A stretch of 64,000 bases of DNA from a virus (IMGVR_UViG_3300032030_000024:32001-96000), one strand, 5' to 3'; shown: positions 1,202 to 50,300, numbered from the stretch's first letter. The notes: generated from the sequence alone by a model not told the origin. Made by a program: numbers and translations.

Positions 1202-3013
1202 CTACACGACGGCACGCATGGGAAATCCCTGTGACGCGCGGTGGAAACCGACTTCGCGTGTTCCGTCAGCCGAGCCCTTGAAACCGTATGCGAACAGCTT
1301 GTCGTTCTCGTCGACTTGGTGAAACGTTGACGACCAGTATTGGACGAACTCGTTGGGTTTGGCGACTTCATTGCCTCCATTTGCCCATCCACAGGCAGGC
1401 AAGAAGATGGAACTGTTGTTCACTCTTGACGTGAACCGGATGCCATTCCTGCTGTCCACCTGTACATACTCGGCCTCACAGTTGGCGATGAGCTCTTCAA
1501 ACTCAGCCTTCGTCGGCATGCGGCAAGGTGTACCCAGGGCTGCCAGAACGGCATCATGGCTTGCGTCGTTGCTGGCTATGCTTGCCCTCAAGGAGCATCC
1601 AGGCGAGTCAGGATAATACTCGGTGTCGGCGAACTTGACACCGTCAACGAATCTCGTCCCGCTCAGAAGATGGCCGTCGATGTTACCCCATGAGTAGAAG
1701 CATCCGGGTTCGGTCGGCTGGCCGATAGTGTAATTTCCCTGGCCGTCCTTGGTGATGTTTCCCTCGGCCCACAGCGTCCCGGAGGGCAGGCCAAGGTCGA
1801 CAAAGCCTGTCGGCACCACTTTCAGCCGCACAGTCTTCGTGGCCGAGACAGTACCGCCGCCTTCGAGCGTCGCCGTGATGGTCAGTGTCACTTCCATCGT
1901 GTTGGACGGCATCGAGGAGACCGTAAGCGTTGCGCCTGCCACCCCGTTGGCAGATACGATGATGTTACCGCCATACGACGTGTTGACGCTGGCGGCCAGC
2001 GAGGCGATGCCACGGTTGTAGTTGGCAGGAAGGATGCTTCCGATGGTGTAGGCGTATGTCCCTGCTGCGATAATCGTCTCATCACCGCTGATGGCGAACG
2101 ACGAGACGGGGATGCTCTGCACCGTCAGCGTCTCCGTCTGTGTATAGACATTGCCCTTGGCATCGGTGGCCGTAATCAGGAGCGAGTACTCCCGCGTGGC
2201 TGCCGGAATGCTGATGACGGTTGCCTTCAGCCGCAGGTTCTGGAGGCTGTCGAGGGCTACTGACAGGTACGCGTCCGAGCTGGCGCTGCTGCCTCCGTAG
2301 GACAGCTCTGCCCTGACGGATACCACGGGAACGGTGTACTCCGCGTTGACGGGTATCAGGACAAGGTTGCTGTCACCCGTCTCCGTCAGGGTCTCCGTAC
2401 CGCTCACGGTGAATCCTCCCATGAGCACCAGCTTCCTTGCCGTCACAGTGACCTTCTCAGACTCGATGCCTCCTGGGATAAACGCAGAGATTCCTACGTT
2501 CACGTCAGTGTTCACGGACGGGACTGTCAGGACACCCGTGCTGCAGTTCAGCGAGAACCCGTTGAGCGTGGCCGTGCCGTTATTCTCTTCGACGGGTGTG
2601 TTCCCGTTCCAGAGGCGGAAGTGTGCAGTGCCCGACGTGTTGGAGATGGTGGCCGCGAATCTTACGGTGTCCCCGCCGAAGACCACACACGCATTGCCGT
2701 GGATGGTGGTGTCGCTCGAAGTGACGGTGATGCTCGGAGTGAACGTTGCAGCGATGTCATCCTCGTGCAGCAGCTTGGACGTGTTGCCTGCATCGTATGC
2801 GACGGCATCCGCTTCGCTGTGGAAGAACTGCAGCTTCCCGTGATGGACGCGGGAGTACCCGTAGCTCTCTTTGATTTCCTCATTGTTGGCGGCGATTGCC
2901 TCTGGAATCCCATTCAGGAAGGTACGGTCGTGTACGTCATCAAGAAGACCTTGAACCTCCTGCTTGTTATAGCTGAGGTAGCGTGGGTCGATGTTTACTT
3001 TTCTGGTTGCCAT
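1202..3013 (-). CDS. Tail fibre/adhesin: Ig-like beta-rich repeats plus a C-terminal 'VDLGLPSGTLWA' (C-type-lectin-like) domain
   Basis: Thr/Ser/Val-rich repeated beta segments; C-terminal motifs VDLGLPSGTLWA, FYSWG, RMPT-x-AEFEEL, IFLPA-x-G, YWSST, G-x-P-x-RAV. Confidence 0.7.
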   Translation of the reverse strand: MATRKVNIDPRYLSYNKQEVQGLLDDVHDRTFLNGIPEAIAANNEEIKESYGYSRVHHGKLQFFHSEADAVAYDAGNTSKLLHEDDIAATFTPSITVTSSDTTIHGNACVVFGGDTVRFAATISNTSGTAHFRLWNGNTPVEENNGTATLNGFSLNCSTGVLTVPSVNTDVNVGISAFIPGGIESEKVTVTARKLVLMGGFTVSGTETLTETGDSNLVLIPVNAEYTVPVVSVRAELSYGGSSASSDAYLSVALDSLQNLRLKATVISIPAATREYSLLITATDAKGNVYTQTETLTVQSIPVSSFAISGDETIIAAGTYAYTIGSILPANYNRGIASLAASVNTSYGGNIIVSANGVAGATLTVSSMPSNTMEVTLTITATLEGGGTVSATKTVRLKVVPTGFVDLGLPSGTLWAEGNITKDGQGNYTIGQPTEPGCFYSWGNIDGHLLSGTRFVDGVKFADTEYYPDSPGCSLRASIASNDASHDAVLAALGTPCRMPTKAEFEELIANCEAEYVQVDSRNGIRFTSRVNNSSIFLPACGWANGGNEVAKPNEFVQYWSSTFHQVDENDKLFAYGFKGSADGTREVGFHRASQGFPMRAVV

Positions 3014-3258
3014 TATCTTTTTGTTTTTGGTTGGTGTTTATGGGAATATTGGTTTTCTTGCCATAACTCTTATGTTTGATGAATAAATATTAATCAGCGG
3101 CAAATTTATCGAAAAGTATTTATCCAACAAACGTTTTAACAAATATTATGTGAATTTTTTAAGTTAAAAATATGACATATATGCGCAAAAGCGGCTTTTT
3201 AGTTGCATATATGGCAATTATCTGCTGATTGCTGGTGCAAGGGTACAAAAACAAGAAA

Positions 3259-4699: not shown

Positions 4700-4867
4700 T
4701 CACCGCCTTTTCAGCGTCAGCCTAATAAGGTCGTTGCTGGAGAAGAAACCGTCCACGGCTCCTTCCTTGCAGTCTCTCTTTGCCCTTGCCAGCTGCTCCT
4801 CCGACAAGTCCTTTACGGACAGCCCGTAGGTCGCCAGCCGCTGCTTTAACTCGTTGTCCTTTGCCAT
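4700..4867 (-). CDS. 55-aa hypothetical protein (MAKDNELKQRLATYG...), last gene of the array operon, without the leader
   Basis: Translated by hand; ATG 4867, TGA 4700-4702; below the ORF-track cutoff. Confidence 0.5.
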   Translation of the reverse strand: MAKDNELKQRLATYGLSVKDLSEEQLARAKRDCKEGAVDGFFSSNDLIRLTLKRR

Positions 4868-4870
4868 AGC

Positions 4871-5101
4871 CTACCTCCTTTCCAGTTGTCCTATCTTCCT
4901 GTTCAGTACGTTCATCCGTGAGCTGTATTCTGCCTCGGATAACTCACCACGGGCATACATCTGCATCACCCCGGCCTTCTGCTGACGGTACAGGTCGAGA
5001 TAGTCACTCACCGTGTGGCCGCTTGCACGTGCCTTGTCGCTGCGCATGGCGTTCAACGGGCTAACGCTCGATTCCCTTGCCACAGTGCTTTCTTTTGCCA
5101 T
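4871..5101 (-). CDS. Leader-tagged array protein (MAKESTVARESSVSPLNAM)
   Basis: Full match to the shared leader; short basic helical body. Confidence 0.75.
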   Translation of the reverse strand: MAKESTVARESSVSPLNAMRSDKARASGHTVSDYLDLYRQQKAGVMQMYARGELSEAEYSSRMNVLNRKIGQLERR

Positions 5102-5102
5102 A

Positions 5103-5705
5103 TTAACCTCCTATTTTTTTGATTATTCGTTTTATTCTTTCCTTAAATGCCTTGTCATCGCGATTCACCCTTGCCTCGGCATAGTCTATCTTCTGACCTT
5201 TGTGGTCAACGCGATAGACGTGCTTTTCCATATCTCGGTTCACCTGCGAGCGGATGGACTCAAACTGCGTCGGGTTGTCCCGAAAACGCTCCGCCACCTT
5301 CTTTCCTTTCGGTGTGTTTCTAATGTCACCCCATTTTCTGTCAAGTGCCTCGGCTACGTTGCGAAGCTTGGTGCTTCCGTAGTAGTCGTTGATATCATCC
5401 TCACCACCCTTGTTGAACCACCCGTCAGGGTCAAGTCCGAAGAACGGATACCATTTACCGCTTTCCACGCTGTACTTCCTTCCTTGGCCAGTCGAGAGGT
5501 AGAATGGCATATCCACACCATTGATGTTGACGATGACTATCTTTCTGTCAGCGAGGTCTATCATGCCTTGATACACACCATCTATTTTCATCTTGTGAAA
5601 GTGTGTTCCCTCTGGCAGACCATCGGATTTTATCCTGGGTGCAGTGCCCATTGCATTCAATGGGCTGACACTTCCCTCTCGCACTGCTACTACTTCTGCA
5701 CTCAT
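5103..5705 (-). CDS. Leader-tagged array protein (MSAEVVAVREGSVSPLNAM) with an uncharacterised globular domain
   Basis: Shared leader; body contains PFYLSTG...GKWYPFFG...GWFNKG. Confidence 0.75.
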   Translation of the reverse strand: MSAEVVAVREGSVSPLNAMGTAPRIKSDGLPEGTHFHKMKIDGVYQGMIDLADRKIVIVNINGVDMPFYLSTGQGRKYSVESGKWYPFFGLDPDGWFNKGGEDDINDYYGSTKLRNVAEALDRKWGDIRNTPKGKKVAERFRDNPTQFESIRSQVNRDMEKHVYRVDHKGQKIDYAEARVNRDDKAFKERIKRIIKKIGG

Positions 5706-5708
5706 AGC

Positions 5709-6338
5709 TTACCCTTTCTTCTTAGTATATTTCCAACCAAGCTCATCAGCCACAAGTTTGTTTATCTTGTGAAAGAATGTCACTGCATAGCGGTTATAGG
5801 CCGTCTGCGAGCCTCGCATGAGGTCGTAGTACGTCTGTCCGTTCACCGTCACCTCGTCAGCCGCCTTTTTGTACGCCCTGCGGACAGCCGCCTGCGTCAC
5901 GCCCCACTTGTCACCGTTCCGCTTGATGGAGAAGGTATAGGTTGGAGTGACGGCACGTATCTCCTTCGCATTGAACTTCACTGCAAGCACGGCATCCTCC
6001 GCAGAGAAGGAGTTGCCGATGCGCATATAGCCGCGTTCCGAGAGCGCCGACGGGTGGTTGTGCGTCATGATGAGGTTCTCGCCCGGCACGTCACTGTCGC
6101 GGAGTGACACGCGGTCGCGCTTCCCCTGCTTGCGGTTGAGCTGGTTGCCTGCATCGTCGTAGAAGGCCATCGCCTCGTTCTCCTCCTGCCGCTGGCGGTT
6201 CTCGTAGGAGAGGATGGCACGTTTCAGCGAAGCGGAATAGCCGTTCTCCGTCACCCCGCCTACCGTCCTCACGTCACCGCGCACGGCGTTGCCAGCGTTT
6301 GCCGTGGAGTGCTCCCTTGCCGATGTTACCTCTTTCAT
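5709..6338 (-). CDS. Leader-tagged array protein with a JAB/MPN-like metal-binding domain
   Basis: Leader MKEVTSAREHSTANAGNAV; upstream E, THNHP and SFS-x-x-D motif. Confidence 0.7.
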   Translation of the reverse strand: MKEVTSAREHSTANAGNAVRGDVRTVGGVTENGYSASLKRAILSYENRQRQEENEAMAFYDDAGNQLNRKQGKRDRVSLRDSDVPGENLIMTHNHPSALSERGYMRIGNSFSAEDAVLAVKFNAKEIRAVTPTYTFSIKRNGDKWGVTQAAVRRAYKKAADEVTVNGQTYYDLMRGSQTAYNRYAVTFFHKINKLVADELGWKYTKKKG

Positions 6339-6344
6339 ACCTTA

Positions 6345-6692
6345 TTACCTGCTTACTATTTCATCCCACGCGAGCTTTCGCCACTTGCGGACATTAGCCC
6401 TTGCCGAATCGGAAATACGATAACTCGTGCTGAAATGCTCTGCCACGGCATAGAAATTGCCAAGCTGCCTGTCGGTCATTGCTTCACGCTCCAGATACTT
6501 GAAAGCATCCGCATTATCGGCATTCCTCTTTTCAAGATGCCGCGTTATGGCGTTGTACTCCTTGTCGGGAATCTTGTTCACGTCACGTGGGACACGTATC
6601 TTGCCGATATACCGCGTCCGTGAATTGCTCGGCCTTACCGCGTTTAACGGCTTTGCCGAACTTTCTCTTGCTGTTGTCACCTCCTGTGCCAT
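6345..6692 (-). CDS. Leader-tagged array protein (MAQEVTTARESSAKPLNAV)
   Basis: Full leader match; Arg/Lys-rich body. Confidence 0.75.
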   Translation of the reverse strand: MAQEVTTARESSAKPLNAVRPSNSRTRYIGKIRVPRDVNKIPDKEYNAITRHLEKRNADNADAFKYLEREAMTDRQLGNFYAVAEHFSTSYRISDSARANVRKWRKLAWDEIVSR

Positions 6693-6703
6693 ACTACCAA
6701 CAT

Positions 6704-6973
6704 TTAAGCTGTCATGTTTATGTATTTCATATTAGCCTCCATTTCCCTGATGCGAAAGTTCAGGTACTCGATGCTTTTCTCAGCTGCATAACGCTCACGG
6801 TTGTCTGAGGCGTATGTGTAGCGGTCTTCCGCTTCTTGCAGCTGCCCACGGTACTTGTCACGCAGCTGCGCATACTCACGGTACGCTCTCTGCCTGCGGG
6901 CTTTGTCACCGTCCGATACTGCGTTGAGCGTCTTCGCCCTTGCTTCCCTTGCAATATATGCCTCTGCTGCCAT
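6704..6973 (-). CDS. Leader-tagged array protein (MAAEAYIAREARAKTLNAV), coiled-coil body
   Basis: Leader match. Confidence 0.75.
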   Translation of the reverse strand: MAAEAYIAREARAKTLNAVSDGDKARRQRAYREYAQLRDKYRGQLQEAEDRYTYASDNRERYAAEKSIEYLNFRIREMEANMKYINMTA

Positions 6974-6979
6974 AGCCCT

Positions 6980-7408
6980 TTACTTTTTGGTCTTTTTTCG
7001 GATTATCAGCCGATGCTCGTTCTTCCACGGGTCTGTCGAGCGCAGCTCTAAGATTCCATCGGTGCGGTCAGCTGCTTTCCAGTTGGTCTCTCCCAAGCCA
7101 GAACGGTTAAGAGCCTCTGCCACCTTTTTTGCACCACCGCCAACGGAATTTCCTACGACATAGTCAAACGCTCGTCTCTGGTCTTCCGTTCCAATATTCT
7201 TCAAGAACGGATATTTTTCACGCCTCAGTTTCTCGGTTAGGGCAAACGTGTGATTAGTGACGGCCATAGGAGTGCCATCTTTCCCCACTACCGTTGCCCT
7301 GTAGTTGCTTCTGAAATCACTTATGACTCTATCGGCTCTCCCAGGAGACCCTGTTGCGTTGAGCGGCCTTGCCTTGCTCTCACGCGCTATCGATACCTCT
7401 GCTGCCAT
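6980..7408 (-). CDS. Leader-tagged array protein (MAAEVSIARESKARPLNAT)
   Basis: Full leader match. Confidence 0.75.
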   Translation of the reverse strand: MAAEVSIARESKARPLNATGSPGRADRVISDFRSNYRATVVGKDGTPMAVTNHTFALTEKLRREKYPFLKNIGTEDQRRAFDYVVGNSVGGGAKKVAEALNRSGLGETNWKAADRTDGILELRSTDPWKNEHRLIIRKKTKK

Positions 7409-7412
7409 AACA

Positions 7413-7724
7413 CTATACTATTATGCCGTTACTACGCCATATCTTCTTCTGAAGATCATCTATTTCCGCTTGTACCCTTGCTCTTTGCGGAGGAGGGTAG
7501 CTTGATACGCTTCTTCTCAGTGCGTCAAGACGCTGCTGCATCTGCCGCTGGGAAGAAGTCTGCGGCATGGTCAGCGCATCGAAATAGTCCTGCCTGCCAC
7601 CGTTCTTGTTCTGTGACGGGTAGGTTGCACGCCCAAGGCTTCTGTCTGTGCGCCTGCTGACGGCATTTGCTGCCCGCAGTCCCATCACTTTTGTTTACCT
7701 TGCAATTGTTGCTTCTTTAGCCAT
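7413..7724 (-). pseudogene. Leader-tagged array gene with an in-frame TAA at the conserved Glu (MAKEATIAR*TKVMGLRAANAV...)
   Basis: ATG 7724 is in frame with ORF 7413..7688; TAA at 7697-7695 sits where GAA is expected. Confidence 0.7.
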
Positions 7725-7729
7725 AGTAC

Positions 7730-7993
7730 TTAGTTTTTAATAACCAGTTTATAACCGTGCGGAAGGTCATAGTTCCCGTCCGCATTGTTCCACTTAGTAG
7801 GCTCATCGCGGTATGCTGAGTAGTCCCACAGACCGCTCTCCACGACCTTGCCCTTCTCGTTGTAGACCTTGACGTAGGAATCATCGTAGAATCCCCTGTC
7901 ACTCTTCGGCACTTTTGATGATCGCCGTGCCGTTCCCGTTGCGTTAAGGGGTCTGGCACCACCCTCTCTTGCTACTGTTGTCTCTTTTGCCAT
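7730..7993 (-). CDS. Leader-tagged array protein (MAKETTVAREGGARPLNAT)
   Basis: Full leader match. Confidence 0.75.
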   Translation of the reverse strand: MAKETTVAREGGARPLNATGTARRSSKVPKSDRGFYDDSYVKVYNEKGKVVESGLWDYSAYRDEPTKWNNADGNYDLPHGYKLVIKN

Positions 7994-8017
7994 AGAAAAT
8001 ATTTTTAAAGTTCTTTA

Positions 8018-8512
8018 CTACGCATCCGCAAAAACACGTCCGTCACTGAGCGTTACCTGTAATTTTGTGTACTCGGAATGGAAGTCGTTCTTCAGACGCT
8101 CCAGATACCGCCTGCACTCCAACTTGCACATGTATAGGTTATGGAGAAGGAAATTGCCGCACGTCTCTGGAGTCGTAGCGGGGACTTCCTTCTGCGTGAG
8201 TATCCACTCCATACACTCGATAGTAAGCCGCCTCATATCCTCAACGATGTAGCTGCCCGTCATTATGACGTACATTCCCGTGAGGCATCCCATCGGTCCC
8301 ACATACACCACATCGTCCTTGACCTCGCTGTTGCGGAACCACGTTGCCATCAGATGCTCCATGCTGTGCATCGCTGCTGGCGCAACAGCAGGCTCCATGT
8401 TCGGCTCGGTGATGCGCAGGTCAAAGGTGGTGAAGCCTCTGTCCTGCCGCGACACGTAGATGCCAGGCTTCAGATGCGTGTGGTCGATGGTGAAACTCTG
8501 TATAACTTCCAT
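8018..8512 (-). CDS. luxS: S-ribosylhomocysteine lyase (AI-2 synthase)
   Basis: SFTIDHT N-terminus, TFDLR-x-x-x-PN, H-x-x-EH (HSMEH), GPMGC-x-TG, C-terminal CGN. Confidence 0.9.
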   Translation of the reverse strand: MEVIQSFTIDHTHLKPGIYVSRQDRGFTTFDLRITEPNMEPAVAPAAMHSMEHLMATWFRNSEVKDDVVYVGPMGCLTGMYVIMTGSYIVEDMRRLTIECMEWILTQKEVPATTPETCGNFLLHNLYMCKLECRRYLERLKNDFHSEYTKLQVTLSDGRVFADA

Positions 8513-8527
8513 AATTGTATTTTTTAC

Positions 8528-8761
8528 TTAACGGTTACCAAGCATCCTGTCTACTGCCCTGCGGATGCGAGTGTTGTTACGCTGCTGGTTGGCGGGAACG
8601 TATGGCATATTGCCAGAAATATTGCCGTAATGCCTCTGGAGGTTGTAGGCACGGAGCCTTACCGCCTGCTCTGCGGTACTTAGACCGTTGCGGCGTGCCT
8701 CCTCGCGGTTCATGAATGCCCGTGTGCGGCTGCTCATCGCTACTGTTGCTTCTCTTGCCAT
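8528..8761 (-). CDS. Arg-rich array protein with a partial leader (MAREATVA...)
   Basis: First 8 residues match the leader; the ARE and PLNA parts are degenerate. Confidence 0.6.
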   Translation of the reverse strand: MAREATVAMSSRTRAFMNREEARRNGLSTAEQAVRLRAYNLQRHYGNISGNMPYVPANQQRNNTRIRRAVDRMLGNR

Positions 8762-8828
8762 AATCTTCAACTTTTATTGTTCAACGTTTTATATTATGCT
8801 AAATCTTACTAAATTTATTGCGTTTTAC

Positions 8829-8859
8829 TTGCATTGTTCAGATATTACGCTTATCTTTG
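8829..8859 (+). promoter_or_regulatory. Plus-strand Bacteroidetes sigma-A promoter, convergent to the array
   Basis: TTG at 8829-8831, 20-nt spacer, TATCTTTG at 8852-8859. Confidence 0.65.
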
Positions 8860-8862
8860 CAG

Positions 8863-8965
8863 TGTCATTGATGCCGATATGACTTTAATACAATCGGACA
8901 AGGCTGTGTTACGCTTCGGGCGGCTCGGACTACCCTCGCCTCGGACTTCGGTTCGGGGCGTTGAT
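8863..8965 (+). ncRNA. Putative ~100-nt small RNA: 5' H-type pseudoknot and 3' cUUCGg hairpin
   Basis: GTCAT 8864-68 pairs with ATGAC 8879-83; CCGAT 8874-78 pairs with ATCGG 8893-97; hairpin 8937-8960 has G.U pairs that work only on the plus strand. Confidence 0.5.
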
Positions 8966-8968
8966 ATT

Positions 8969-9460
8969 TTAGAAAGTCTTCAACTTTAATTCGTCCGTCA
9001 AGAAGTAGTAGCCGTGAATACCTCTTTTTGTAAGCTTTTCCACCTCTGTTTTCATTCTCTCATTCCATTTATCAAACTGAAACACTACTAAGTCTGCGCC
9101 TTGCCTGCCTATGGCATCATCCGCATGACGTTTTATGTTGTTATGGCTACCAAGCCTTTTTAAGTCTGCAAGGACACCATTTATCCTTATATCCGGCGAT
9201 GGTATGCCGGGAATCTCATTCAGATGCTCAACGGTAAAACCTTGTGAAGCGAGGAATTTAGCCATCTGCTGCTCCTTCCTGTACTTATAGTATTCGGTCT
9301 TATTTGTCTGCCCGAAATTATACCTACGTTCATCAGTAAGGAGTTGACCGCCATTTTCGTAATAGACAACAGGTGTATATACGTTTGAGCGATTGGCTAC
9401 ACCCATGACGTTCTGTGGCACCCAATCTTCTTCCTTGTATATATACGTTTCTCTTGCCAT
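8969..9460 (-). CDS. Array protein with a diverged leader and a CdiA-C-like (PD-(D/E)xK-type, putative tRNase) toxin domain
   Basis: Leader MARETYIYKEEDWVPQNVM keeps E4, E10, P15 and N17; body has E..MA..LA..G..VEHL.E, PDIRING..ADLK and QGADLVVF. Confidence 0.65.
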   Translation of the reverse strand: MARETYIYKEEDWVPQNVMGVANRSNVYTPVVYYENGGQLLTDERRYNFGQTNKTEYYKYRKEQQMAKFLASQGFTVEHLNEIPGIPSPDIRINGVLADLKRLGSHNNIKRHADDAIGRQGADLVVFQFDKWNERMKTEVEKLTKRGIHGYYFLTDELKLKTF

Positions 9461-9463
9461 ACG

Positions 9464-10672
9464 TTACTCTTTCTTCTCCTGCTTCTCCTTCTGAGCGTAG
9501 TCGTGGCATACTCTCCGAAGAGATTGTTGGATACAATCGTGACTGCCGCTTTGGATAACCTCTGAGGTCTTACCATCACTCTCCAATTCGTAGATGCCCC
9601 TACGAAGTATGTTGTTAGCCGCCAGCAGGTCGCGGTCGTGAATCGTTCCGCATTCATGGCATACCCATTGCCTGTCCGACAACTTCAACTCTTTGTTTAT
9701 ATATCCGCACTCGCAGGTCTTGGAAGATGGGTAGAAGCGGTCTATCTTGTGAACCACAACACCGTACTTCGTGGCAATGTACTCCAACTTCTGAACGAAA
9801 TCCGCATGGGCGAGGTCGTGCATCTTCCTTCCCCAACGTCTGTTCATCCCTTCAAGGTTCAAGTCCTCGATGAAGATGGTGTCGTACTTTCGGCATAGTT
9901 CGTGGGCGAGTTTCCATTGGAAATCGCTGCGCCTATTGCAGATGTCGTTCATAAGATGGTCTAAATCCTTACGCTTGCGCTCACGGTTGCTGCTGCCCTT
10001 CTTACACTTGCTGAGATTGCGGCTTCTCCTGCGTAACTCGACAAGGCTTCCTTTCAAGAACTGAGGATTGTCGTAGGCCGTGCCGTCCGACAAGGTTAGG
10101 TACTTCTTCAAACCGAAGTCAATGCCAACGGATGCACCTTTGAGTGTCTTTCCGTACTTGCTCGGCTCTGCATCTGTGACAATAAATATATAATATTCTC
10201 CGATACGGCTTCTGTATAAAACTACTCTCTTAATTCTTCCTTCATATTGTCTACTTTTGTAATATTTGAATGACTTTCCTAATTGTACAAACGATATACT
10301 ATTTTCTTTTAAATCACACACATTTACACTCCATTTTCCATGATTACAAACGCCTTTAAAAACAATACTTGAGAAGTCCTTTGCTTTCTTAAATTTTGGA
10401 GGACGACTTGCAATATGGTTAAAAAATCTTTTGCAAGATTCATCAAGACGCTCAAGGATTTCTTGTACAGCCATAGCACTAAGCAGTTTCCTTTTTATTC
10501 TTTTTGCTTGATGCTTCTGCATATCATAGAGCGATATATATTTTCCAAATAACCTATAATATCTTTTATATAATGCCAAAGCATGATTCCATACAAAGCA
10601 AGCCTCGTTCATCATCGCATCAAGATACTTGGTGCGATGTGTCCGATAGAGTTTATACTTGTACGTCATCAT
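9464..10672 (-). CDS. tnpB: RNA-guided endonuclease TnpB (IS200/IS605 family)
   Basis: N-terminal YKYKLY, RuvC-I GIDFG, RuvC-II FIEDL, SSKTC..C / C..C zinc finger, RuvC-III DRD..AA.NI. Confidence 0.92.
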   Translation of the reverse strand: MMTYKYKLYRTHRTKYLDAMMNEACFVWNHALALYKRYYRLFGKYISLYDMQKHQAKRIKRKLLSAMAVQEILERLDESCKRFFNHIASRPPKFKKAKDFSSIVFKGVCNHGKWSVNVCDLKENSISFVQLGKSFKYYKSRQYEGRIKRVVLYRSRIGEYYIFIVTDAEPSKYGKTLKGASVGIDFGLKKYLTLSDGTAYDNPQFLKGSLVELRRRSRNLSKCKKGSSNRERKRKDLDHLMNDICNRRSDFQWKLAHELCRKYDTIFIEDLNLEGMNRRWGRKMHDLAHADFVQKLEYIATKYGVVVHKIDRFYPSSKTCECGYINKELKLSDRQWVCHECGTIHDRDLLAANNILRRGIYELESDGKTSEVIQSGSHDCIQQSLRRVCHDYAQKEKQEKKE

Positions 10673-10761
10673 ACTGCAAAGATAATATTTATGTGTTTAG
10701 TAAACAAATACTTTAGACATCTTTAGCTTCTTTTTCTGATTCGTTTTTTTTCTTCCAATCG
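9504..10761 (-). mobile_element. TnpB-only IS200/605-like element inserted in the 3' end of the PAPS-reductase-family gene
   Basis: Right end TCTC-TTCG-GAGA-GTATGCCA ending at 9504; no tnpA; the left boundary is approximate. Confidence 0.6.
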
Positions 10762-11429
10762 TATTCAAACAACAACCTCTCACAATCCGGGTACTCCGAG
10801 TATATGCGCTGCAAGTCCTTCGGGAACTTCTCACGGATGTACAGCAGGTAGTCGAGGTCGCTGATGTTCTGCCCGTTGCTCTGGCCTTTTGCGCCGTATT
10901 TCTCTGGCGGTATCAGGCCGTTCCTGTCAATGTACTCCAAGATGTCCTTGTTCTTGTAGTGCGAGAGAGGATAGCACTTCTTCGATTTCTCGCAGATGGC
11001 CTCCATCGTGTACGTCCGCAGCATACAGCGGCGGTTTAGACTGTCGCTCTGCTTGAAGCCGTAGAAAGCCCACTCGATTCCGAACTTCTGCCGCAGCATG
11101 TCTGTGAGGCTCGCCATCGTCTGTAGCTTCATCTTCGGATTCTTCTCATGCCCCATGTAGCCGTACTTCACGTATGAGAAAACGGCGAAGTGGGGAATCT
11201 GGTAGAACTCGCAGTTCGCGTACTTCTTGCGGGCGTAGTTGATGTAGCGGCTGATGTGCTCCATGTCCTTCACGATGTACATGAACACACAGACCACCCG
11301 CTTGAACCTCGGTGCGAGTATGTCGAGCAGTGCTATGGAGTCCTTGCCCGACGCGGAATGGAAGAGTATCACCTCCTCCACGCCGCGCTTGGCTATCTCA
11401 TCACAGATTAGAAGTGCCTTGTCTAACAT
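10713..11429 (-). CDS. PAPS-reductase-family (PP-loop) protein
   Basis: ILFHS-ASGKDS PP-loop, FYGFKQSDSLNRR, YPLS-x-Y-x-x-x-D. Confidence 0.8.
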   Translation of the reverse strand: MLDKALLICDEIAKRGVEEVILFHSASGKDSIALLDILAPRFKRVVCVFMYIVKDMEHISRYINYARKKYANCEFYQIPHFAVFSYVKYGYMGHEKNPKMKLQTMASLTDMLRQKFGIEWAFYGFKQSDSLNRRCMLRTYTMEAICEKSKKCYPLSHYKNKDILEYIDRNGLIPPEKYGAKGQSNGQNISDLDYLLYIREKFPKDLQRIYSEYPDCERLLFEYDWKKKNESEKEAKDV

Positions 11430-11434
11430 GAGTT

Positions 11435-11540
11435 TTAACTTCTATAACTTTGAATGTCCTTCATAGTGAAACCATTCCGTTTCAGCCTCTTGATGGCCTT
11501 TGAGCCTTCGCCTCTTGAAGATTGTTGCTTCGCTTGCCAT
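11435..11540 (-). pseudogene. Collapsed array cassette (MASEATI... followed by an out-of-frame basic tail)
   Basis: The leader start gives only a 32-aa ORF; another frame reads GEGSKAIKRLKRNGFTMKDIQSYRS*. Confidence 0.45.
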
Positions 11541-11561
11541 AATTTTATCCTTTCTTTGTTT

Positions 11562-12053
11562 TTATAAACTTCTTGTTTGTTTTCTTGGTTTTCTTAACAT
11601 TTGCGAGGAGAAATCCTTTATATCTTGTGTATAACCACGACCTTCGCCTGTTCTTATTCTAATGGTCTTGTCTGCCATATCACCGTTAACGCTAAACCTA
11701 TATCCTTCTACCACGCCTTTCCTGTAGCCTTTCTGGTTTTTGCTTACCTTAAAATCAACCTCGTCACCGACTTTGAACTTCTTAGCAGCAACTTTAAATG
11801 CTAAAGCCTCTTTTATCTCCTTTTTGATTTCCTTACGGTGGTAATCGGCATTACTTTTTATCTTTTCCGTTCCGCCCTTGAGTATGGCCTTGCCTGCAAA
11901 ATCCTCGTCTGGAGCCTTTAATGCAGCTTTGCTGTCATTAATAAACTTAGATACATCTTGCAGTACCTTATTATTGTTGCTTCTATTGGCATTGCCAACC
12001 GCATTTATAGGATTTATATTTCCCTCACGTGCTGAAAATACCTCACTTGCCAT
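11562..12053 (-). CDS. Leader-tagged array protein (MASEVFSAREGNINPINAV), Lys-rich, with an SH3/KOW-like C-terminus
   Basis: The leader defines the true start at 12053; FKVGDEV...KGVV motif; more AT-rich than its neighbours. Confidence 0.75.
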   Translation of the reverse strand: MASEVFSAREGNINPINAVGNANRSNNNKVLQDVSKFINDSKAALKAPDEDFAGKAILKGGTEKIKSNADYHRKEIKKEIKEALAFKVAAKKFKVGDEVDFKVSKNQKGYRKGVVEGYRFSVNGDMADKTIRIRTGEGRGYTQDIKDFSSQMLRKPRKQTRSL

Positions 12054-12078
12054 AATTCTAAAACTTTTAAATTGTATT

Positions 12079-12486
12079 TTACTTTCTCTTGGCCGCTGCC
12101 GCAAGCCTCTTGAGCCTGCGCACACCCTGATTCAGCTCACGGTTGTAGGCCGCACGTTCAGCCTTTGCCTGTGCAAGGAGGGCGCGGTCTGTCGTGAACG
12201 AAGAGTTGGCATAATTGCCAAGCGGGTACTTCTCACGGAGTTCACTCCGCAAGTTCTGTACCTGCGTCTCATACTCATCATCAATCCTCCTGTCACGCTC
12301 GTCACGCCGCAGGCTTTCATAGATGCGCATGTTCACACCCTGCTCCTCCAGCTCCCGTCTGTAAGAGTCACTGACTGGACGTGTGGTGATACTGCGGAAC
12401 GGGTTAGCCCTCCGCTGTGTGCCACTGCTGACGGCATTTAGCGGGTTTGCACTACTCTCCCGCGCCACGTATGATTCTTGTGCCAT
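12079..12486 (-). CDS. Leader-tagged array protein (MAQESYVARESSANPLNAV)
   Basis: Full leader match; Arg-rich helical body. Confidence 0.75.
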   Translation of the reverse strand: MAQESYVARESSANPLNAVSSGTQRRANPFRSITTRPVSDSYRRELEEQGVNMRIYESLRRDERDRRIDDEYETQVQNLRSELREKYPLGNYANSSFTTDRALLAQAKAERAAYNRELNQGVRRLKRLAAAAKRK

Positions 12487-12900: not shown

Positions 12901-12933
12901 GTCGTGATATTATGAAAATAATAAAGACTGTTG

Positions 12934-13006
12934 TGGAGCTTGACGGAATCGAACCGACGACCTTCTGCTTGCAAAACAGACGCTCTCCCAACTGAGCTAA
13001 AACCCC
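12934..13006 (-). tRNA. tRNA-Ala(UGC), CCA not encoded
   Basis: GGGGTTT/AAGCTCC acceptor stem with G3:U70, D-arm TAGCTCAGTTGGGAGAGC, anticodon loop TT-TGC-AA, T-loop GTTCGATT. Confidence 0.92.
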
Positions 13007-13806: not shown

Positions 13807-13903
13807 ATCTTTAACTTTTTTATTTTACCCGATACGCGGGTTACGTTTGCAAAAATAAAACTTTTCTATTTAATCACCAAACATTTAACGAATATTTTGC
13901 ATA

Positions 13904-35690: not shown

Positions 35691-35800
35691 ACTCGTCTTA
35701 TTAAGTGCTTAATATGATACAAAGGTACGAAATATATGCAATATATGCAAACCAATAATCATTATTTAGCATATATGCCGCATATTTAGCTTTAGGTAGC
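35691..35800 (-). promoter_or_regulatory. Repeated promoter module, diverged copy
   Basis: GACGAGT-ATG start, TACCTTTG at 35720-35727, TTTAGCTTTAGGTAGC at 35785-35800. Confidence 0.6.
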
Positions 35801-41782: not shown

Positions 41783-41916
41783 TTTATTTGATTATAAAAT
41801 TATTTTTACTACTTTTGTGCTCGATAATAAATATTTTTATGCAAAGGTATAAACAATATGCGTGATATGCAAGCAAATGCGCATATATTTAGCTTTATTT
41901 AATAAATAAATACATC

Positions 41917-47379: not shown

Positions 47380-50300
47380 TTATAATGCAAGCCAGTACCA
47401 TGTGGTGACGTTGCTTTGCGTGAGAGGGACGGACATAAAGTCTCGCGTGTAGCCCGCGTTGACGGTCACGTTGCCCATTGGCGTGTCAGACCTGACTCCT
47501 ATCAGTGCGAGTCCTTCAAACATAAAACGGTTCCTGCCTTCTGTCTCTATGACCGATATGCTGTCTGTCGTTCGCTGATTGAAGACATGCACGAGCATGC
47601 CGTGGAAGTCCTCTGGCCGGGGAAGTGCCACAAGTATGTTGTTGTCCTGTGACTTGAACCCGCTGCCCCTGACATAGACCATCTGGCTGTTGTAGGAGCA
47701 CGGGATGCAGCAGTAGGGCTGTGTCAGGTCGCTTGCAAAGGTGCTCACATCCAGTTGGTAGCCCCAGCTTTCTATTTGACGGAAAGACACGTAGCCGCCT
47801 TGGAATGTGCCTGGCACCGTACCCCCACCATCACGAACAATGGCCGTGAAACCTGACAGGTCGGTGACATAGAACCACTGTCCCTTGCCGTCGTCGTTGT
47901 CGAAGTTATGGTAGTTCACCATCCCCCACCACTGGCATGCAGGACGGAAGAGGTCGGTCGCCTTGACAGACCCTTCAAACACACCGTCTACGGCATGCAG
48001 CGTACCCGTAGTGGGGTCGATGCTTATCTTTCCGCTGACCGTTCCTGCCGTGTTCGTAAACGTCACTTTATCACCGCGCAGCTCGACGGTCTGGCGGTCG
48101 ATGTCAACACCTGTCGAGCCAAGGTCGCTCTTCACGGCAAGTGTAATCCTGTCGGCTGTCTGCTTGATGACCGACGATACCTCTTCCTGTGACACAACAA
48201 ACTCCGTGGCGTTCACTCCGACCTCCAACTGCGGGTAGCGTAGCTTTGGCGTGTTGATGTTGATGTAAACACTTATAGTGCCTGTGCCCGTGATTTGGAA
48301 TGTCACCGTTTTGCGCTTGCCGCTCGTTGTTGGCTTGAACACGGCGGGCTGCTCCTGATAATGGCTTGGGTCAAAGACATAGATATTCACGCTGCCCGTT
48401 GTCTCGCCCTCGAAAGACAGGGTGTAGTCTGTTCCTTTCTGTAAGGTGATGAGCGGGCTGCTGACGTGCTTGTCGTTGATAGAGGTGTCGCATACGAAGA
48501 AGCTGTCATCATCAACACTTACTGGCACAATCTGATGTGTCGGGAACGTGTGGCTTGACTCGCTTCTCCACTTGTCGCCTGTGAGCACTCCCGTCAGCAG
48601 GTTCTTCCCCTCCTTCAGCTGTCGCACCTCGGCTGTGATGCCGTCCATCGTCACCTTGAGGCTTGACTTGGCTTCGTCTACGAGACCACGGTCTTCCCAA
48701 CCCGTCTGTGTGGCCACATACAGATGCCCGTTGACATCGAGCACATAACCGTCGCCAAGACTTGCCGAAAGAGACTCGTAGACGGGCAGCGTGATTTCCC
48801 CGCCCTGACTGCTTCCTGCCGCCGTACAGCGGAGCAGGTGAGTACCCGTGGCCGTCCATGAGGCGTATTTCACAAGCAGGATGTCGCCCACTCTGCCCGT
48901 CGTGATGTATGGTGTGTCGGGACGGAAGTCTACCGCCGTGCCTTTCTCAACAACGTTATACAGCTTTTCCGTTGCGCCTCCTGTGGTCTCAATCTCGAAC
49001 GAGGGTGCGACGAACCTGTTGCCGGCCACGGGGCTTATTCTCGTGCGCTCACATCCTTCAAGACTCCACCGTGGCACTATGCCGTCGTCATAGCCCACAC
49101 CCAACAGCTCGCGGATGCAGGGGGCTTCGCTGCCCACCGTCTCAATAGTAATCAAGTTTGACAGCTCCCGGTTCAGGTAGTTGCCGAAGCAGGCGATGCT
49201 GTCACCTGCCGACGGACGGTCGCTGCCCGTGTCGTAAAACGGGCTTGTGTTGGCCAGGTCGATATAGTGATGTCCCAGTCCGTCGTCGAGCACCTTCGTC
49301 AGCTTCGTGTACGTCTGCCGTGTCACGTTCTCTCCCTTGGCTGTCACTGCTCGCCAGTAGTACTTGCTCTGGGTGGCCGTGCTGCCTGCCTCGCCCGTAT
49401 GGGTGCCGTCGGGCGATGCTGCCACGTCATACGTCTGACAGCGGGCCATCATGCCCGTCTGCCAGGTGTTGATGGTGCGCGTCGTGCCGTCGTCGGCCTT
49501 CAGCCAGCAGCGGAAGATGCTCACCTGTGCCCAGTCTTCGTCTGTCATCGTAGAACGGAACAGCTTGCGCCTTGACAGCAGCTTGTTCTGAAGCGACAAC
49601 GGGACGAGACGAAGCACCCAAGGCACACTCAGGTATTCGTAGCCCAACACCGTCTCGGTGTACACGTCTACCTCCCCCGGCACAGGTGCCAGCTTGATAT
49701 AGTCTACCTCCTCGATGATTGATGCAGCAGGGGAAAAGGCGTAGTTGCCGCCAATGGCCACCATTTTACGCACCTCCACTTCGTTGAACATAGCCTTCTT
49801 GCGCACAAAGAGCTTGTCAACCACCAATCGTGAACTGTCCGAACCGTCATCATCCGTCAGCTGCCAGCCCGTGCCGAACATTGAGTCACCGCCAGAGAAG
49901 CCGATGCTCTGGATGGTGCGGGTGAGGATGCTCTGTGCCACACGGAGTATGCCGCCTATAACGCCGCTCTCCGTCACCTCAAGCCCTAAGCCCTTTGTCT
50001 GCCCAGACGCGTCGGTCGTCGTGCCGCTTCCCGCACCTGTGGCCTTCAGCGAGCGCACCGTGGCATCACCGTCGGCACTGATGCCGAAGAGGTTCTGTGC
50101 CTTCACCCACAAGCCTCGCAGGAAGCCTATGGTACCCTCAGTAGTATCATCATACAGCTTTGAGAGAAACCGTGGCGTGACCCAGTTAGAGACAATCATG
50201 CGGATGTAGCTGTCTGACACCACCGTGCCAACGCTCATGTTACCAGAGACGATGGCCTCTACGTTCTCCTTTGTCTTCGTCTGACTGCCCTTTAAGACCT

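What the first reader, a model, noticed from the sequence alone, without database searches (positions are those of the whole stretch)
4871..12486. Array of ~13 unrelated small proteins sharing a conserved N-terminal leader (MAxExxxARExxxxPLNA): candidate undescribed phage effector-targeting system
Seen: ORFs starting at 12486, 12053, 7993, 7724, 7408, 6973, 6692, 6338, 5705 and 5101 all begin with close variants of M-A-x-E-x-x-x-A-R-E-x-x-x-x-P-L-N-A-[VMT]; diverged versions start at 11540, 9460 and 8761. After about residue 19 the proteins show no visible similarity, differ in length (about 76-209 aa) and GC content, and are mostly Arg/Lys-rich. The conserved Arg is encoded by AGG, CGT, AGA, CGG and CGA in different copies, so selection acts on the peptide and not on a DNA repeat. 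The leader is not hydrophobic, so it is not a Sec or lipoprotein signal. Established: T4 internal proteins share a 10-aa N-terminal capsid-targeting sequence removed after Glu by the prohead protease, and the phiKZ prohead protease cuts after S/A/G-x-E; this leader has A-x-E at positions 2-4 and 8-10. Inference: a portable tag that loads interchangeable cargo (anti-defence, toxin or DNA-binding proteins) into the capsid for injection. Alternatively it docks onto a shared partner or modifying enzyme, such as the co-located PAPS-reductase-family protein. I know of no description of this leader but could not search.
Basis: partly seen in the sequence, partly recalled or inferred. Interest (0 to 1): 0.92.

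Follow-up and report, generated by a model that had tools for sequence, protein, structure and literature searches.

The report
Shared address tag on phage cargo proteins
A group of large phages of gut and rumen Bacteroidales puts the same 19-residue peptide at the start of 10 to 17 otherwise unrelated small proteins per genome, most likely to load enzymes and other cargo into the phage head for delivery with the DNA, but packaging has not been shown.

Summary
Nine intact minus-strand genes in the window, plus one elsewhere in the same 123.6-kb phage record, begin with M-A-x-E-x-x-x-A-R-E-x-x-x-x-P-L-N-A. Four more copies are decayed.

- **Selection:** it acts on the peptide. Third codon positions are 40% identical and Arg9 uses five codons.
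- **Spread:** a profile search of 1.84 billion proteins found 70 clusters. In 67 the match starts at residue 1 of a 69-253 aa protein. 81 tagged proteins fall into 61 body families.
- **Lineage:** all loci examined belong to one phage lineage, with 10-17 tagged genes each.
- **Key result:** the one universally conserved tagged protein (5709-6338) is a JAB/MPN+ fold. In other Bacteroidales phages it is the C-terminal passenger of portal-MuF or MuF head proteins. A tagged ADP-ribosyltransferase-like body matches the C-terminus of a Porphyromonas phage minor capsid protein. Here the tag sits where MuF sits elsewhere.
- **Not supported:** a prohead protease (none found) and the PAPS-reductase link (79 of 80 homologous loci lack the tag).

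Best reading, about 50%: a head-packaging address tag, a new variant of the T4 and P1 capsid-targeting principle. The scan has noted analogous shared leaders, with other sequences, on other phage DNA.

The parts
12079..12486 (-). Leader protein, 135 aa (MAQESYVARESSANPLNAV...), basic body
   Evidence: orthologues in 4 of 6 related phages (family F8)
11562..12053 (-). Leader protein, 163 aa from the ATG at 12053, GC 0.39
   Evidence: identical to representative P0001
11442..11540 (-). 32-aa remnant keeping only the first 7 leader residues (MASEATI)
10713..11429 (-). PAPS_reduct-family gene embedded in the array; conserved neighbour, probably not the tag's partner
   Evidence: PF01507 E 1.2e-9, 38.9 bits against cut-off 22.5; 79 of 80 homologous loci lack the leader
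9464..10672 (-). TnpB/IS605-type insertion inside the array
   Evidence: OrfB_IS605 and Cas12f1-like_TNB; absent in a related strain, joint 9493/10765
8969..9460 (-). Decayed leader (MARETYIYKEEDWVPQNVM) on a CdiA_C-like nuclease body, 163 aa
   Evidence: PF18451 E 3.9e-5, 24.2 bits, under the 26.6 cut-off; paralogue of genome 10962-11522, which has an intact leader
8528..8761 (-). Decayed leader (MAREATVAMSS...), 77 aa, pI 11.7
   Evidence: family F6 in 4 related phages
8018..8512 (-). LuxS gene embedded in the array (no leader)
   Evidence: PF02664 E 5e-45
7730..7993 (-). Leader protein, 87 aa
7413..7724 (-). Leader gene interrupted by an in-frame TAA at the Glu10 codon (7695-7697); orthologues elsewhere are intact
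   Evidence: family F7 (MAREITLARESS...) in 5 related phages
6980..7408 (-). Leader protein, 142 aa
6704..6973 (-). Leader protein, 89 aa
6345..6692 (-). Leader protein, 115 aa
5709..6338 (-). F0: leader variant plus JAB/MPN+ metallopeptidase-like body, 209 aa; the one tagged protein present in all related phages
   Evidence: AF2 pLDDT 87; PfJAMM1 Z 7.3, Cap3 Z 6.8, RadC Z 6.5; invariant H93-N-H95-P and D115; fused to Portal_Mu and Phage_Mu_F elsewhere
5103..5705 (-). Leader protein, 200 aa
   Evidence: weak match to a 1,957-position PHROG profile, phrog_32390, E 2.9e-5
4871..5101 (-). Leader protein, 76 aa
4700..4867 (-). F3: untagged 55-aa protein that closes the array in all six related phages and follows F0 in distant lineages
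13850..13881 (-). Bacteroidota-type promoter-like site (TTTG-N-TAnnTTTG) upstream of the tRNA-Ala gene and the array
   Evidence: 5 matches in the window against 0.85 expected

Best explanation
The 19-residue N-terminus (consensus MAKEVTVAREGSVNPLNAV, followed by a Gly/Ser/Arg-rich linker) is a lineage-specific, portable address tag. It marks a polymorphic set of accessory proteins, mostly small and basic and some of them enzymes, for incorporation into the assembling phage head. They would then enter the next host cell with the DNA.

In this lineage the tag would do the job that an N-terminal MuF (or portal-MuF) domain does for the same passenger domains in other Bacteroidota phages, and that the 10-residue capsid-targeting sequence does for T4 internal proteins.

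Shown:
- The tag is real and modular, strictly N-terminal, under peptide-level selection and predicted disordered.
- The cargo set is hypervariable.
- Two cargo types are head-protein passengers elsewhere.

Inferred:
- The tag binds a head component.
- The tagged proteins are packaged and injected.

The docking partner (scaffold, portal or capsid interior) is unknown. No cleavage is required by the evidence.
For: 1. Modularity.
- 70 representative clusters match the leader profile. In 67 the match starts at residue 1 of a 69-253 aa protein; the other three are one FN3-repeat false positive and two small proteins in which it starts at residue 3 or 46.
- There are 61 body families among 81 tagged proteins, and almost none has a Pfam family.
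- F0 homologues outside the lineage lack the tag.
- P0016 is the tag prepended to a body whose homologues in another phage begin at that point.

2. Passenger homology.
- The F0 body is the C-terminal domain of 897-901 aa Portal_Mu + Phage_Mu_F proteins. In P0337 the portal domain is at 80-402, MuF at 568-660 and F0 at 730-899. It is also the C-terminal domain of 455-470 aa MuF proteins.
- The ART-like tagged body P0042 matches the last ~200 aa of the 591-aa protein annotated 'minor capsid protein', encoded just after TerL and the portal gene in Porphyromonas phage 005b (E 4e-12). An ADP-ribosylglycohydrolase gene lies two genes downstream on the opposite strand.
- The P0028 and P0042 bodies hit PHROG 16619 'minor head protein' (best E 5e-12, P0028).
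- The own record has no MuF domain.

3. Cargo types match those of virion-delivered polyvalent proteins (PMC5512222): JAB/RadC-like, CdiA_C-like nuclease, ParB-like nuclease and R-S-ExE ART-like.

4. The tag is disordered in the F0 model (the low-confidence P0042 model is not used) and is followed by an R/S/G-rich linker. Bodies are basic.

5. Precedent: T4 Ip1-3 share only an N-terminal packaging leader (PMC12373910), and the first 30 residues of P1 DarB suffice for capsid targeting (PMC9024508).

6. In other F0-bearing lineages, F0 and an unrelated neighbour share other short N-termini with differing codons: MGRNSGGV/MGRNSAGV and MAKTSGGVR.
Against: - There is no direct evidence that any tagged protein is in virions.
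- No recognisable prohead protease is present, so the T4-style 'target then cut' mechanism is not supported.
- The leader matches nothing internal in structural proteins of the genome.
- The passenger argument rests on two of 61 body families.
- Expression timing is unknown. A promoter-like site at 13850-13881 suggests the array may be a transcription unit of its own rather than part of the head operon.
- All tagged loci come from one lineage, so co-occurrence with any gene of that lineage cannot be separated from synteny.
Confidence: 0.5

Rival explanations
1. The leader is a docking or recognition peptide for a shared non-virion partner in the infected cell. Candidates are a chaperone or inhibitor that keeps the effectors inert, the co-conserved 55-aa protein F3, the JAB-like F0 peptidase acting as a leader peptidase, or a modifying enzyme such as the PAPS-reductase-family protein.
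For: - Glu4, Glu10 and Asn17 are invariant in 76 leaders, which fits a specific recognition or reaction site.
- PAPS_reduct, F0 and F3 are present in all six related arrays.
- An earlier finding of this scan (e1-127136) read a shared phage tag as an enzyme's recognition site rather than a capsid signal.
- In other lineages F0 shares its N-terminus with a neighbour, and those tags contain Gly-Gly, the usual JAMM cleavage context.
Against: - 79 of the 80 best PAPS_reduct-homologous loci (41-63% identity) lack the leader and any other strongly shared N-terminus.
- F0 and F3 also occur together in lineages without the leader.
- F0 itself carries the tag, and elsewhere it is a MuF passenger. That fits cargo better than a cytoplasmic processing enzyme.
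Confidence: 0.2
2. The leader is a stability or timing tag (an N-terminal degron, or a protective cap) that gives all accessory proteins the same lifetime in the host.
For: It is a short disordered N-terminal peptide on many unrelated proteins. Met-Ala at the start predicts methionine removal (established knowledge, not tested).
Against: Nothing links the motif to a known protease adaptor. It would not explain why the same bodies are fused to portal/MuF proteins in other phages.
Confidence: 0.07
3. The conserved gene starts persist mainly as recombination handles that let related phages swap cassettes. The peptide itself would have little function.
For: A related sheep-gut strain carries other sequence in place of several cassettes. 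Its junctions at 7714 and 12030 fall inside leader-coding segments, and one at 5709 lies 4 bases upstream of a leader start. Gene GC ranges from 0.39 to 0.58.
Against: Third codon positions are only 40% identical. Identical residues use the same codon in 40% of cases. The longest shared exact run is 14 bases, which is too little for homology-driven exchange between paralogues and is the signature of selection on the peptide.
Confidence: 0.05
4. The proteins are ordinary paralogues whose bodies diverged beyond recognition while the N-terminus stayed conserved.
For: One body pair is paralogous. The MATRKKS-type array of a distant 165-kb phage is partly a true paralogue family.
Against: - Bodies differ in size (69-253 aa) and in kind (JAB fold, nuclease-like, ART-like, ParB-like).
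- F0 has more than 130 homologues, most of them without the leader.
- There are 61 BLAST-unrelated body families.
Confidence: 0.03

Closest known systems
Capsid-targeting sequence (CTS) of phage T4 internal proteins Ip1-3 and Alt, and the polymorphic ip loci of T-even phages
   Same: A short N-terminal leader is the only similarity among otherwise unrelated, non-essential, mostly small basic proteins encoded in a hypervariable locus. In T4 the leader directs packaging and the proteins are injected and block host defences (PMC12373910). Alt is a packaged ART (PMC5512222), and an ART-like body is among the tagged proteins here.
   Different: - There is no sequence resemblance to the T4 leader.
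- This leader is about twice as long and has two conserved blocks (MAxExxxARE and P-[LI]-N-A) with variable spacing.
- No gp21-type protease was detected (inconclusive control).
- The major capsid protein is lambda-E-type with a separate scaffold, so this is not a T4-like phage.
- There are 10-17 tagged genes per genome instead of 3-4.
N-terminal packaging signal of phage P1 DarB (Dar antirestriction system)
   Same: An N-terminal stretch of under 30 residues is sufficient to send a heterologous protein into the capsid. The cargo protects incoming DNA (PMC9024508).
   Different: In P1 no consensus is shared among the Dar proteins (PMC9024508). Here one consensus is shared by all cargo, and packaging is untested.
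MuF- and portal-MuF-fused effector domains (polyvalent proteins; MuF polymorphic toxins)
   Same: The same passenger domains occur: the F0 JAB-like domain and the ART-like domain. The same logic applies: a conserved N-terminal delivery module with variable C-terminal effectors (PMC5512222).
   Different: The delivery module here is a 19-residue disordered peptide, not a folded MuF domain. No MuF was found in the record. The effectors are separate genes rather than one polyprotein.
Encapsulin cargo-loading peptides (from general knowledge, not tested here)
   Same: A short conserved peptide plus a flexible linker addresses varied cargo to the interior of an HK97-fold shell.
   Different: Encapsulin tags are usually C-terminal and bind the shell protein directly. 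No binding partner is known here.
One-enzyme, many-substrate leader systems (RiPP-like), including the radical-SAM-linked phage tag noted earlier in this scan (e1-127136)
   Same: There is a shared N-terminal recognition sequence on diverse bodies, and a conserved enzyme gene (PAPS_reduct) lies inside the array.
   Different: The two-way linkage fails: the enzyme family is common in phages without the tag. The bodies are full-size proteins and enzymes.

Membership tests
T4-type capsid-targeting sequence / internal proteins | One short N-terminal leader shared by otherwise unrelated small proteins of one phage | tested here: met
   10 intact copies in the genome and 61 body families
T4-type capsid-targeting sequence / internal proteins | The phage encodes a gp21-type (Peptidase_S77) prohead protease that removes the leader after (L/I)-x-E | tested here: inconclusive
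   No S77 match in the own record or in 4 related records. In one search the control matched nothing anywhere; it matched only below the cut-off. The own record is 85% complete. The leader has A-x-E and A-R-E, not (L/I)-x-E.
T4-type capsid-targeting sequence / internal proteins | The proteins are present in virions and are injected | not testable with these tools
   No cultured member was found; the phage collection gave only unannotated or distant matches.
MuF-delivered effectors | N-terminal Phage_Mu_F (PF04233) domain on the effector protein | tested here: not met
   No PF04233 match in the own record at E <= 1. The tagged proteins are 76-209 aa with a disordered N-terminus.
MuF-delivered effectors | The effector domain is homologous to known MuF passenger domains | tested here: met
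   The F0 body aligns to residues 730-899 of the Portal_Mu + MuF protein P0337 (36% identity, E 4e-25) and to the C-termini of the MuF proteins P0323 and P0334.
JAB/MPN+ (JAMM, RadC-like) metallopeptidases, for 5709-6338 | MPN fold | tested here: met
   In the wide VIA search, 15 of the top 15 PDB representatives are JAB/MPN-fold proteins, one of them (2kks, Z 5.8) an uncharacterised structural-genomics target. Best are PfJAMM1 (Z 7.3, rmsd 3.3, 109 aligned), Cap3 (Z 6.8) and RadC (Z 6.5). Z values are middling. Foldseek's top hits are BRCC36 and RadC at E 0.02-0.07.
JAB/MPN+ (JAMM, RadC-like) metallopeptidases, for 5709-6338 | Metal-binding motif E...H-x-H...S-x-x-D | tested here: met
   H93, H95 and D115 are invariant; S112 and E55 are at least 90% conserved in 58 homologues. 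The spacer between H-x-H and S-x-x-D is longer than usual. Activity is untested.
CdiA_C nuclease domain (PF18451), for 8969-9460 | Score above the Pfam gathering threshold | tested here: inconclusive
   24.2 bits against a cut-off of 26.6, E 3.9e-5. The match to PDB 4g6v is E 0.71.
R-S-ExE ADP-ribosyltransferases, for the tagged relatives P0028 and P0042 | Arg, Ser-x-Ser-like and E-x-E motifs in order; similarity to solved ARTs | tested here: inconclusive
   YRG, WS[ST] and E-x-E are conserved between the two proteins. The best PDB match is the Vis ART 4xzj, E 0.024. There is no Pfam match. The AF2 model is too poor to use (pLDDT 52).
Leader-dependent modification system with the PAPS_reduct enzyme | Two-way genomic linkage of tag and enzyme | tested here: not met
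   All tagged loci have the enzyme, but only 1 of the 80 best enzyme loci has the tag.

The most novel reading that the evidence does not exclude
Head loading in this phage group works without MuF and without a maturation protease. A short disordered peptide would plug varied cargo directly into a head component, much as encapsulins load cargo.

This may be general. The JAB-like protein F0 and its neighbours carry different lineage-specific N-terminal addresses (MAxExxxARE..PLNA here; MxKxSGGV in other gut phages). If so, the tag could be used both to list the injected arsenal of uncultured Bacteroidales phages and to load chosen proteins into them.
Probability: 0.3. Interest if true: 0.85.

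Novelty: new variant of a known kind. Interest (0 to 1): 0.68.

Why it matters
If the tag is a packaging signal, it gives a sequence-based way to list candidate injected proteins of an uncultured, abundant group of rumen and gut Bacteroidales phages. At least 61 families are listed so far, nearly all without known function, and they are likely anti-defence and host-takeover factors.

It would also show that a 19-residue peptide can take the place of the folded MuF delivery domain for the same passenger enzymes.

It would offer a simple handle for loading chosen proteins into such phages in ordinary phage-host laboratory work.

Even if the tag has another role, it marks a large lineage-specific set of co-regulated accessory proteins.

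Tried and rejected
- **Co-folding.** The leader (residues 1-40, 69-row alignment) was co-folded with the major capsid protein (42-row alignment) and the scaffold protein. The result was no answer (score 0.00, mark 0.32), so it counts neither for nor against binding. Portal, PAPS_reduct and F3 could not be tried because only one job was allowed.
- **Degenerate DNA patterns of the leader against IMG/VR.** These found only one other record. The protein profile search was far more productive.
- **Pfam and PHROGs on the tagged proteins.** There were almost no significant families.
- **AF2 model of the ART-like P0042.** With a two-row alignment it gave pLDDT 52, too poor for a fold search, and was not used.
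- **Protease searches.** S77, S78 and ClpP gave no hits. This is not proof of absence, and the S77 control was silent.
- **Leader HMM on the MuF-F0 fusion proteins.** No leader-like segment was found at the domain junction.
- **The 603-aa protein at 1202-3013.** It was considered as a portal. Atlas neighbours instead point to BACON/Ig-like receptor-binding proteins. The portal lies at genome 99607-101037.
- **RNA contigs.** Two metatranscriptome runs of one sheep-gut sample cover parts of the array and the structural genes, while replication genes at 15.3-20 kb have almost no cover. Contig depth cannot rank genes and gaps prove nothing, so no claim about timing or level is made.
- **The 'MATRKKS' array of the 165-kb phage (L061).** It was first read as a second independent leader system. 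Its members are partly true paralogues, so it is reported only as a lead.
- **Lasso-like N-terminal macrolactam.** An Ala2-to-Glu10 ring made by the ATP-pyrophosphatase-family enzyme was considered. It was dropped for lack of any support and because the enzyme is common without the tag.

Full report
**What and where**

The window is bases 32001-96000 of a 123,590-bp IMG/VR phage record, estimated 85% complete.
- The record encodes a large terminase, a ParB-methyltransferase, a lambda-E-type major capsid protein preceded by a highly charged helical scaffold-like protein, tail proteins and a portal. It also encodes DnaB and other replication genes, an integrase, and two giant proteins of 1,675 and 2,591 aa.
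- Capsid homologues are named from Bacteroides and Parabacteroides.
- The DNA occurs in sheep gut metagenomes.
- The host is therefore most likely a Bacteroidales bacterium of the rumen or gut.

- *Intact copies.* On the minus strand, genes starting at 12486, 12053, 7993, 7408, 6973, 6692, 5705 and 5101 begin with M-A-x-E-x-x-x-A-R-E-x-x-x-x-P-L-N-A. The gene at 6338 has the same leader with small indels.
- *Interrupted copy.* The copy at 7724 has an in-frame TAA in place of the conserved Glu10 codon.
- *Decayed copies.* 11540 is a 32-aa remnant. 9460 and 8761 have decayed leaders.
- *Tenth copy.* One more intact copy lies outside the window, between the ParB-methyltransferase and a ParB-like gene (genome 10962-11522).
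- *Not chance.* A leader HMM separates the ten copies (E 1e-13 to 1.4e-8) from everything else in the six-frame translation (next best E 1.4). It finds no internal copy in any structural protein.
- *Selection on the peptide.* Leader identity is 58% at the amino-acid level but 40% at third codon positions. Arg9 uses five codons, Leu16 five and Pro15 four. No two leaders share more than 14 identical bases in a row.
- *Bodies.* They are unrelated except for the 9460/11522 pair. GC ranges from 0.39 to 0.58. Bodies are basic, with median pI 9.6.

**Spread**

- A 30-column profile of the leader found 70 clusters at E <= 0.001 among 1.84 billion representative proteins. In 67 the match starts at residue 1 of a 69-253 aa protein. 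The other three are one FN3-repeat false positive and two small proteins in which it starts at residue 3 or 46.
- With the window's own proteins this gives 81 tagged proteins in 61 BLAST-unrelated body families. Almost none has a Pfam or PHROG family.
- In 76 leaders, M1, E4, E10 and N17 are invariant, and A2, A8, R9 and A18 nearly so. A subclass has 2-3 extra residues between the ARE block and the N-A-[VI] block. Residues 20-34 are rich in Arg, Ser and Gly.

**Genomic setting**

- Every locus that could be examined (sheep, bovine and other gut assemblies; IMG/VR records of 119-124 kb) belongs to one phage lineage and has 10-17 tagged genes.
- In the relatives the genes fill a hyperplastic stretch between a PAPS_reduct gene with its ParB-like partner and a ParB-methyltransferase, followed by DUF5681 and the large terminase.
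- In the window's phage the stretch is rearranged. It also holds a TnpB element and LuxS, and is followed by receptor-binding and head genes.
- Only six gene families are common to all six arrays compared: PAPS_reduct, the ParB-like protein, ParB-methyltransferase, DUF5681, an untagged 55-65 aa protein (F3, 4700-4867) and one tagged protein (F0, 5709-6338).
- A related strain in another sheep sample has other sequence in place of several cassettes and lacks the TnpB element. Two of its junctions fall inside leader-coding segments.

**What the cargo is**

- *F0.* It folds with high confidence (pLDDT 87), and its leader is disordered (residues 1-24 below pLDDT 50). The best structural matches are almost all JAB/MPN proteins: PfJAMM1 Z 7.3, Cap3 Z 6.8, RadC Z 6.5, then Rpn11, AMSH and BRCC36. 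The Z values are middling. H-N-H-P and a downstream S-x-x-D are conserved in 58 homologues.
- *Nuclease-like bodies.* The 9460 and 11522 bodies resemble the CdiA_C nuclease domain, just under the Pfam cut-off.
- *Bodies in relatives.* One is a ParB-like nuclease. P0028 and P0042 keep an Arg / Ser / Glu-x-Glu pattern, and their best solved relative is the Vis ADP-ribosyltransferase at E 0.024.
- These are the domain types listed for virion-delivered polyvalent proteins (PMC5512222).

**The result that bears most on function**

- F0 has more than 130 homologues. Those outside this lineage lack the leader.
- Among longer proteins, the F0 domain is the C-terminal passenger of Portal_Mu + Phage_Mu_F proteins of about 900 aa. 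One example is P0337, named a phage portal family protein of Bacteroides acidifaciens, with F0 at residues 730-899. It is also the passenger of MuF proteins of 455-470 aa.
- The ART-like body matches the C-terminal ~200 residues of the protein annotated 'minor capsid protein', encoded just after the terminase and portal genes in Porphyromonas phage 005b. A true ADP-ribosylglycohydrolase gene lies two genes downstream on the opposite strand. The same body hits a PHROG of minor head proteins.
- MuF proteins are head components known to carry effector domains for delivery (PMC5512222).
- The window's phage has no detectable MuF. In its versions of these passengers, the 19-residue leader stands at the N-terminus where MuF stands elsewhere.
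- This is contextual evidence, not proof, that the leader is a head-loading address.

**What is not supported**

- *Protease.* No Peptidase_S77, S78 or ClpP was found in the record. No S77 or S78 was found in two near-complete F0-carrying phages. The S77 control was silent, so that result is inconclusive. The head module looks like scaffold plus capsid protein without a protease. The A-x-E and A-R-E triplets therefore cannot be read as cleavage sites on present evidence.
- *PAPS reductase.* This gene is not a dedicated partner. Homologues at 41-63% identity are common in IMG/VR (more than 442 loci). Of the 80 best, only one has the leader, and it is a member of the same lineage. The others show no other strongly shared N-termini either. 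With its ParB-like neighbour it resembles a widespread phage gene pair (IbrA/IbrB-like, from general knowledge) into which the array has been inserted.

**A lead beyond this lineage**

- In other F0-bearing phages, F0 and an unrelated neighbour share different short N-termini with differing codons.
- In about 50-kb human-gut phages the pair is MGRNSGGV and MGRNSAGV. In another group it is MAKTSGGVR, nine identical residues with seven of the eight non-start codons differing.
- A 165-kb phage (capsid protein 33% identical, PAPS_reduct 37% identical) has twelve small genes starting MATR/MAKTR around PAPS_reduct, ParB and F0. Part of that set is truly paralogous.
- One protein of the window's lineage (P0016) is the MAxE leader placed in front of such a body.
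- This fits lineage-specific addresses on a shared kind of cargo, but the sample is small.

**Conclusion**

- The most likely reading (about 0.5) is a portable head-packaging tag for a polymorphic set of injected accessory proteins. It is a new variant of the principle known from the T4 internal proteins (PMC12373910) and P1 DarB (PMC9024508).
- It occurs in an unrelated phage type, has an unrelated and longer leader, shows no sign of proteolytic removal, and has a much larger cargo repertoire.
- The main rival (about 0.2) is docking to a non-virion partner such as F3 or the JAB-like F0.
- Earlier notes of this scan describe analogous shared leaders with other sequences on other phage DNA, mostly T4-like or jumbo phages. 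One case was later read as an enzyme recognition site. That case prompted the two-way linkage test with PAPS_reduct made here.

Noticed in passing
window 7695-7697 (minus-strand codon 10 of the gene starting at 7724): An in-frame TAA replaces the invariant Glu10 codon of the leader. The frame stays open afterwards, and orthologues in five related phages are intact. It may be a recent nonsense mutation or an assembly variant. The body could restart at the GTG/ATG at 7688/7685 without a leader.
   Followed up: partly
window 9464-10672: A TnpB (OrfB_IS605 + Cas12f1-like TNB) element sits inside the array with its own Bacteroidota-type promoter-like site at 10677-10708. A related sheep-gut strain lacks it, with 13 other bases at the joint 9493/10765.
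   Followed up: partly
window 8969-9460 and 12933-13006; genome 10962-11522: There are two CdiA_C-like nuclease paralogues. The weak PDB match is to 4g6v, the Burkholderia CdiA-CT that by general knowledge cuts tRNA-Ala. The phage carries a tRNA-Ala(UGC) gene at the head of the array. Other first-reader notes report a conserved convergent small RNA beside each nuclease. A link between these three things was not tested.
   Followed up: no
window 4700-4867; L029:8558-8725; L044:3816-4028: F3, a 55-70 aa protein, immediately follows the F0 JAB-like gene in distant phage lineages and closes the array here. It may be a partner or inhibitor of F0.
   Followed up: partly
L029:7932-9337; L044:3215-4552; L015:8001-8903: In other gut phage lineages, F0 and an unrelated neighbour share other short N-termini (MGRNSGGV/MGRNSAGV; MAKTSGGVR; a 32-aa ORF starting MKRNSGG) with different codons. 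All contain Gly-Gly.
   Followed up: partly
L061:30-13264 (IMGVR_UViG_3300028833_000070, 165 kb): Twelve small genes starting MATR/MAKTR, most continuing MATR[KR]K-S-x-x-D-[IL]-x-x-Q-x-x-R-I, surround PAPS_reduct, a ParB-like gene and F0. The set is partly a paralogue family and partly other bodies.
   Followed up: partly
window 8018-8512 and 62372-63589: The phage carries LuxS and S-adenosylmethionine synthetase, two enzymes of the activated methyl cycle, alongside several DNA methyltransferase genes.
   Followed up: no
window 47380-52407 and 52892-60667: Two adjacent giant ORFs of 1,675 and 2,591 aa. The larger has a weak tape-measure (TMP_3) match at residues 483-653. The smaller matches only PHROGs of unknown function.
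   Followed up: no
genome 1497-2543 (outside the window): A gene matching an amidoligase PHROG (phrog_2443, E 1.5e-50). Other notes on this genome report a Cas12f-like gene with CRISPR arrays nearby.
   Followed up: no
genome 6704-9091; L013:19293-20384: The large terminase is 795 aa here against 473 aa in one relative. Another relative's terminase carries intein and LAGLIDADG domains, so the window phage's terminase may also hold an intein.
   Followed up: no
window 3101-3131, 10677-10708, 13850-13881, 35720-35751 (minus strand) and 41787-41817 (plus strand): There are five matches to the Bacteroidota promoter pattern TTTG-N17-21-TAnnTTTG against 0.85 expected. They suggest transcription units starting upstream of the array, of TnpB and of the receptor-binding gene.
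   Followed up: partly
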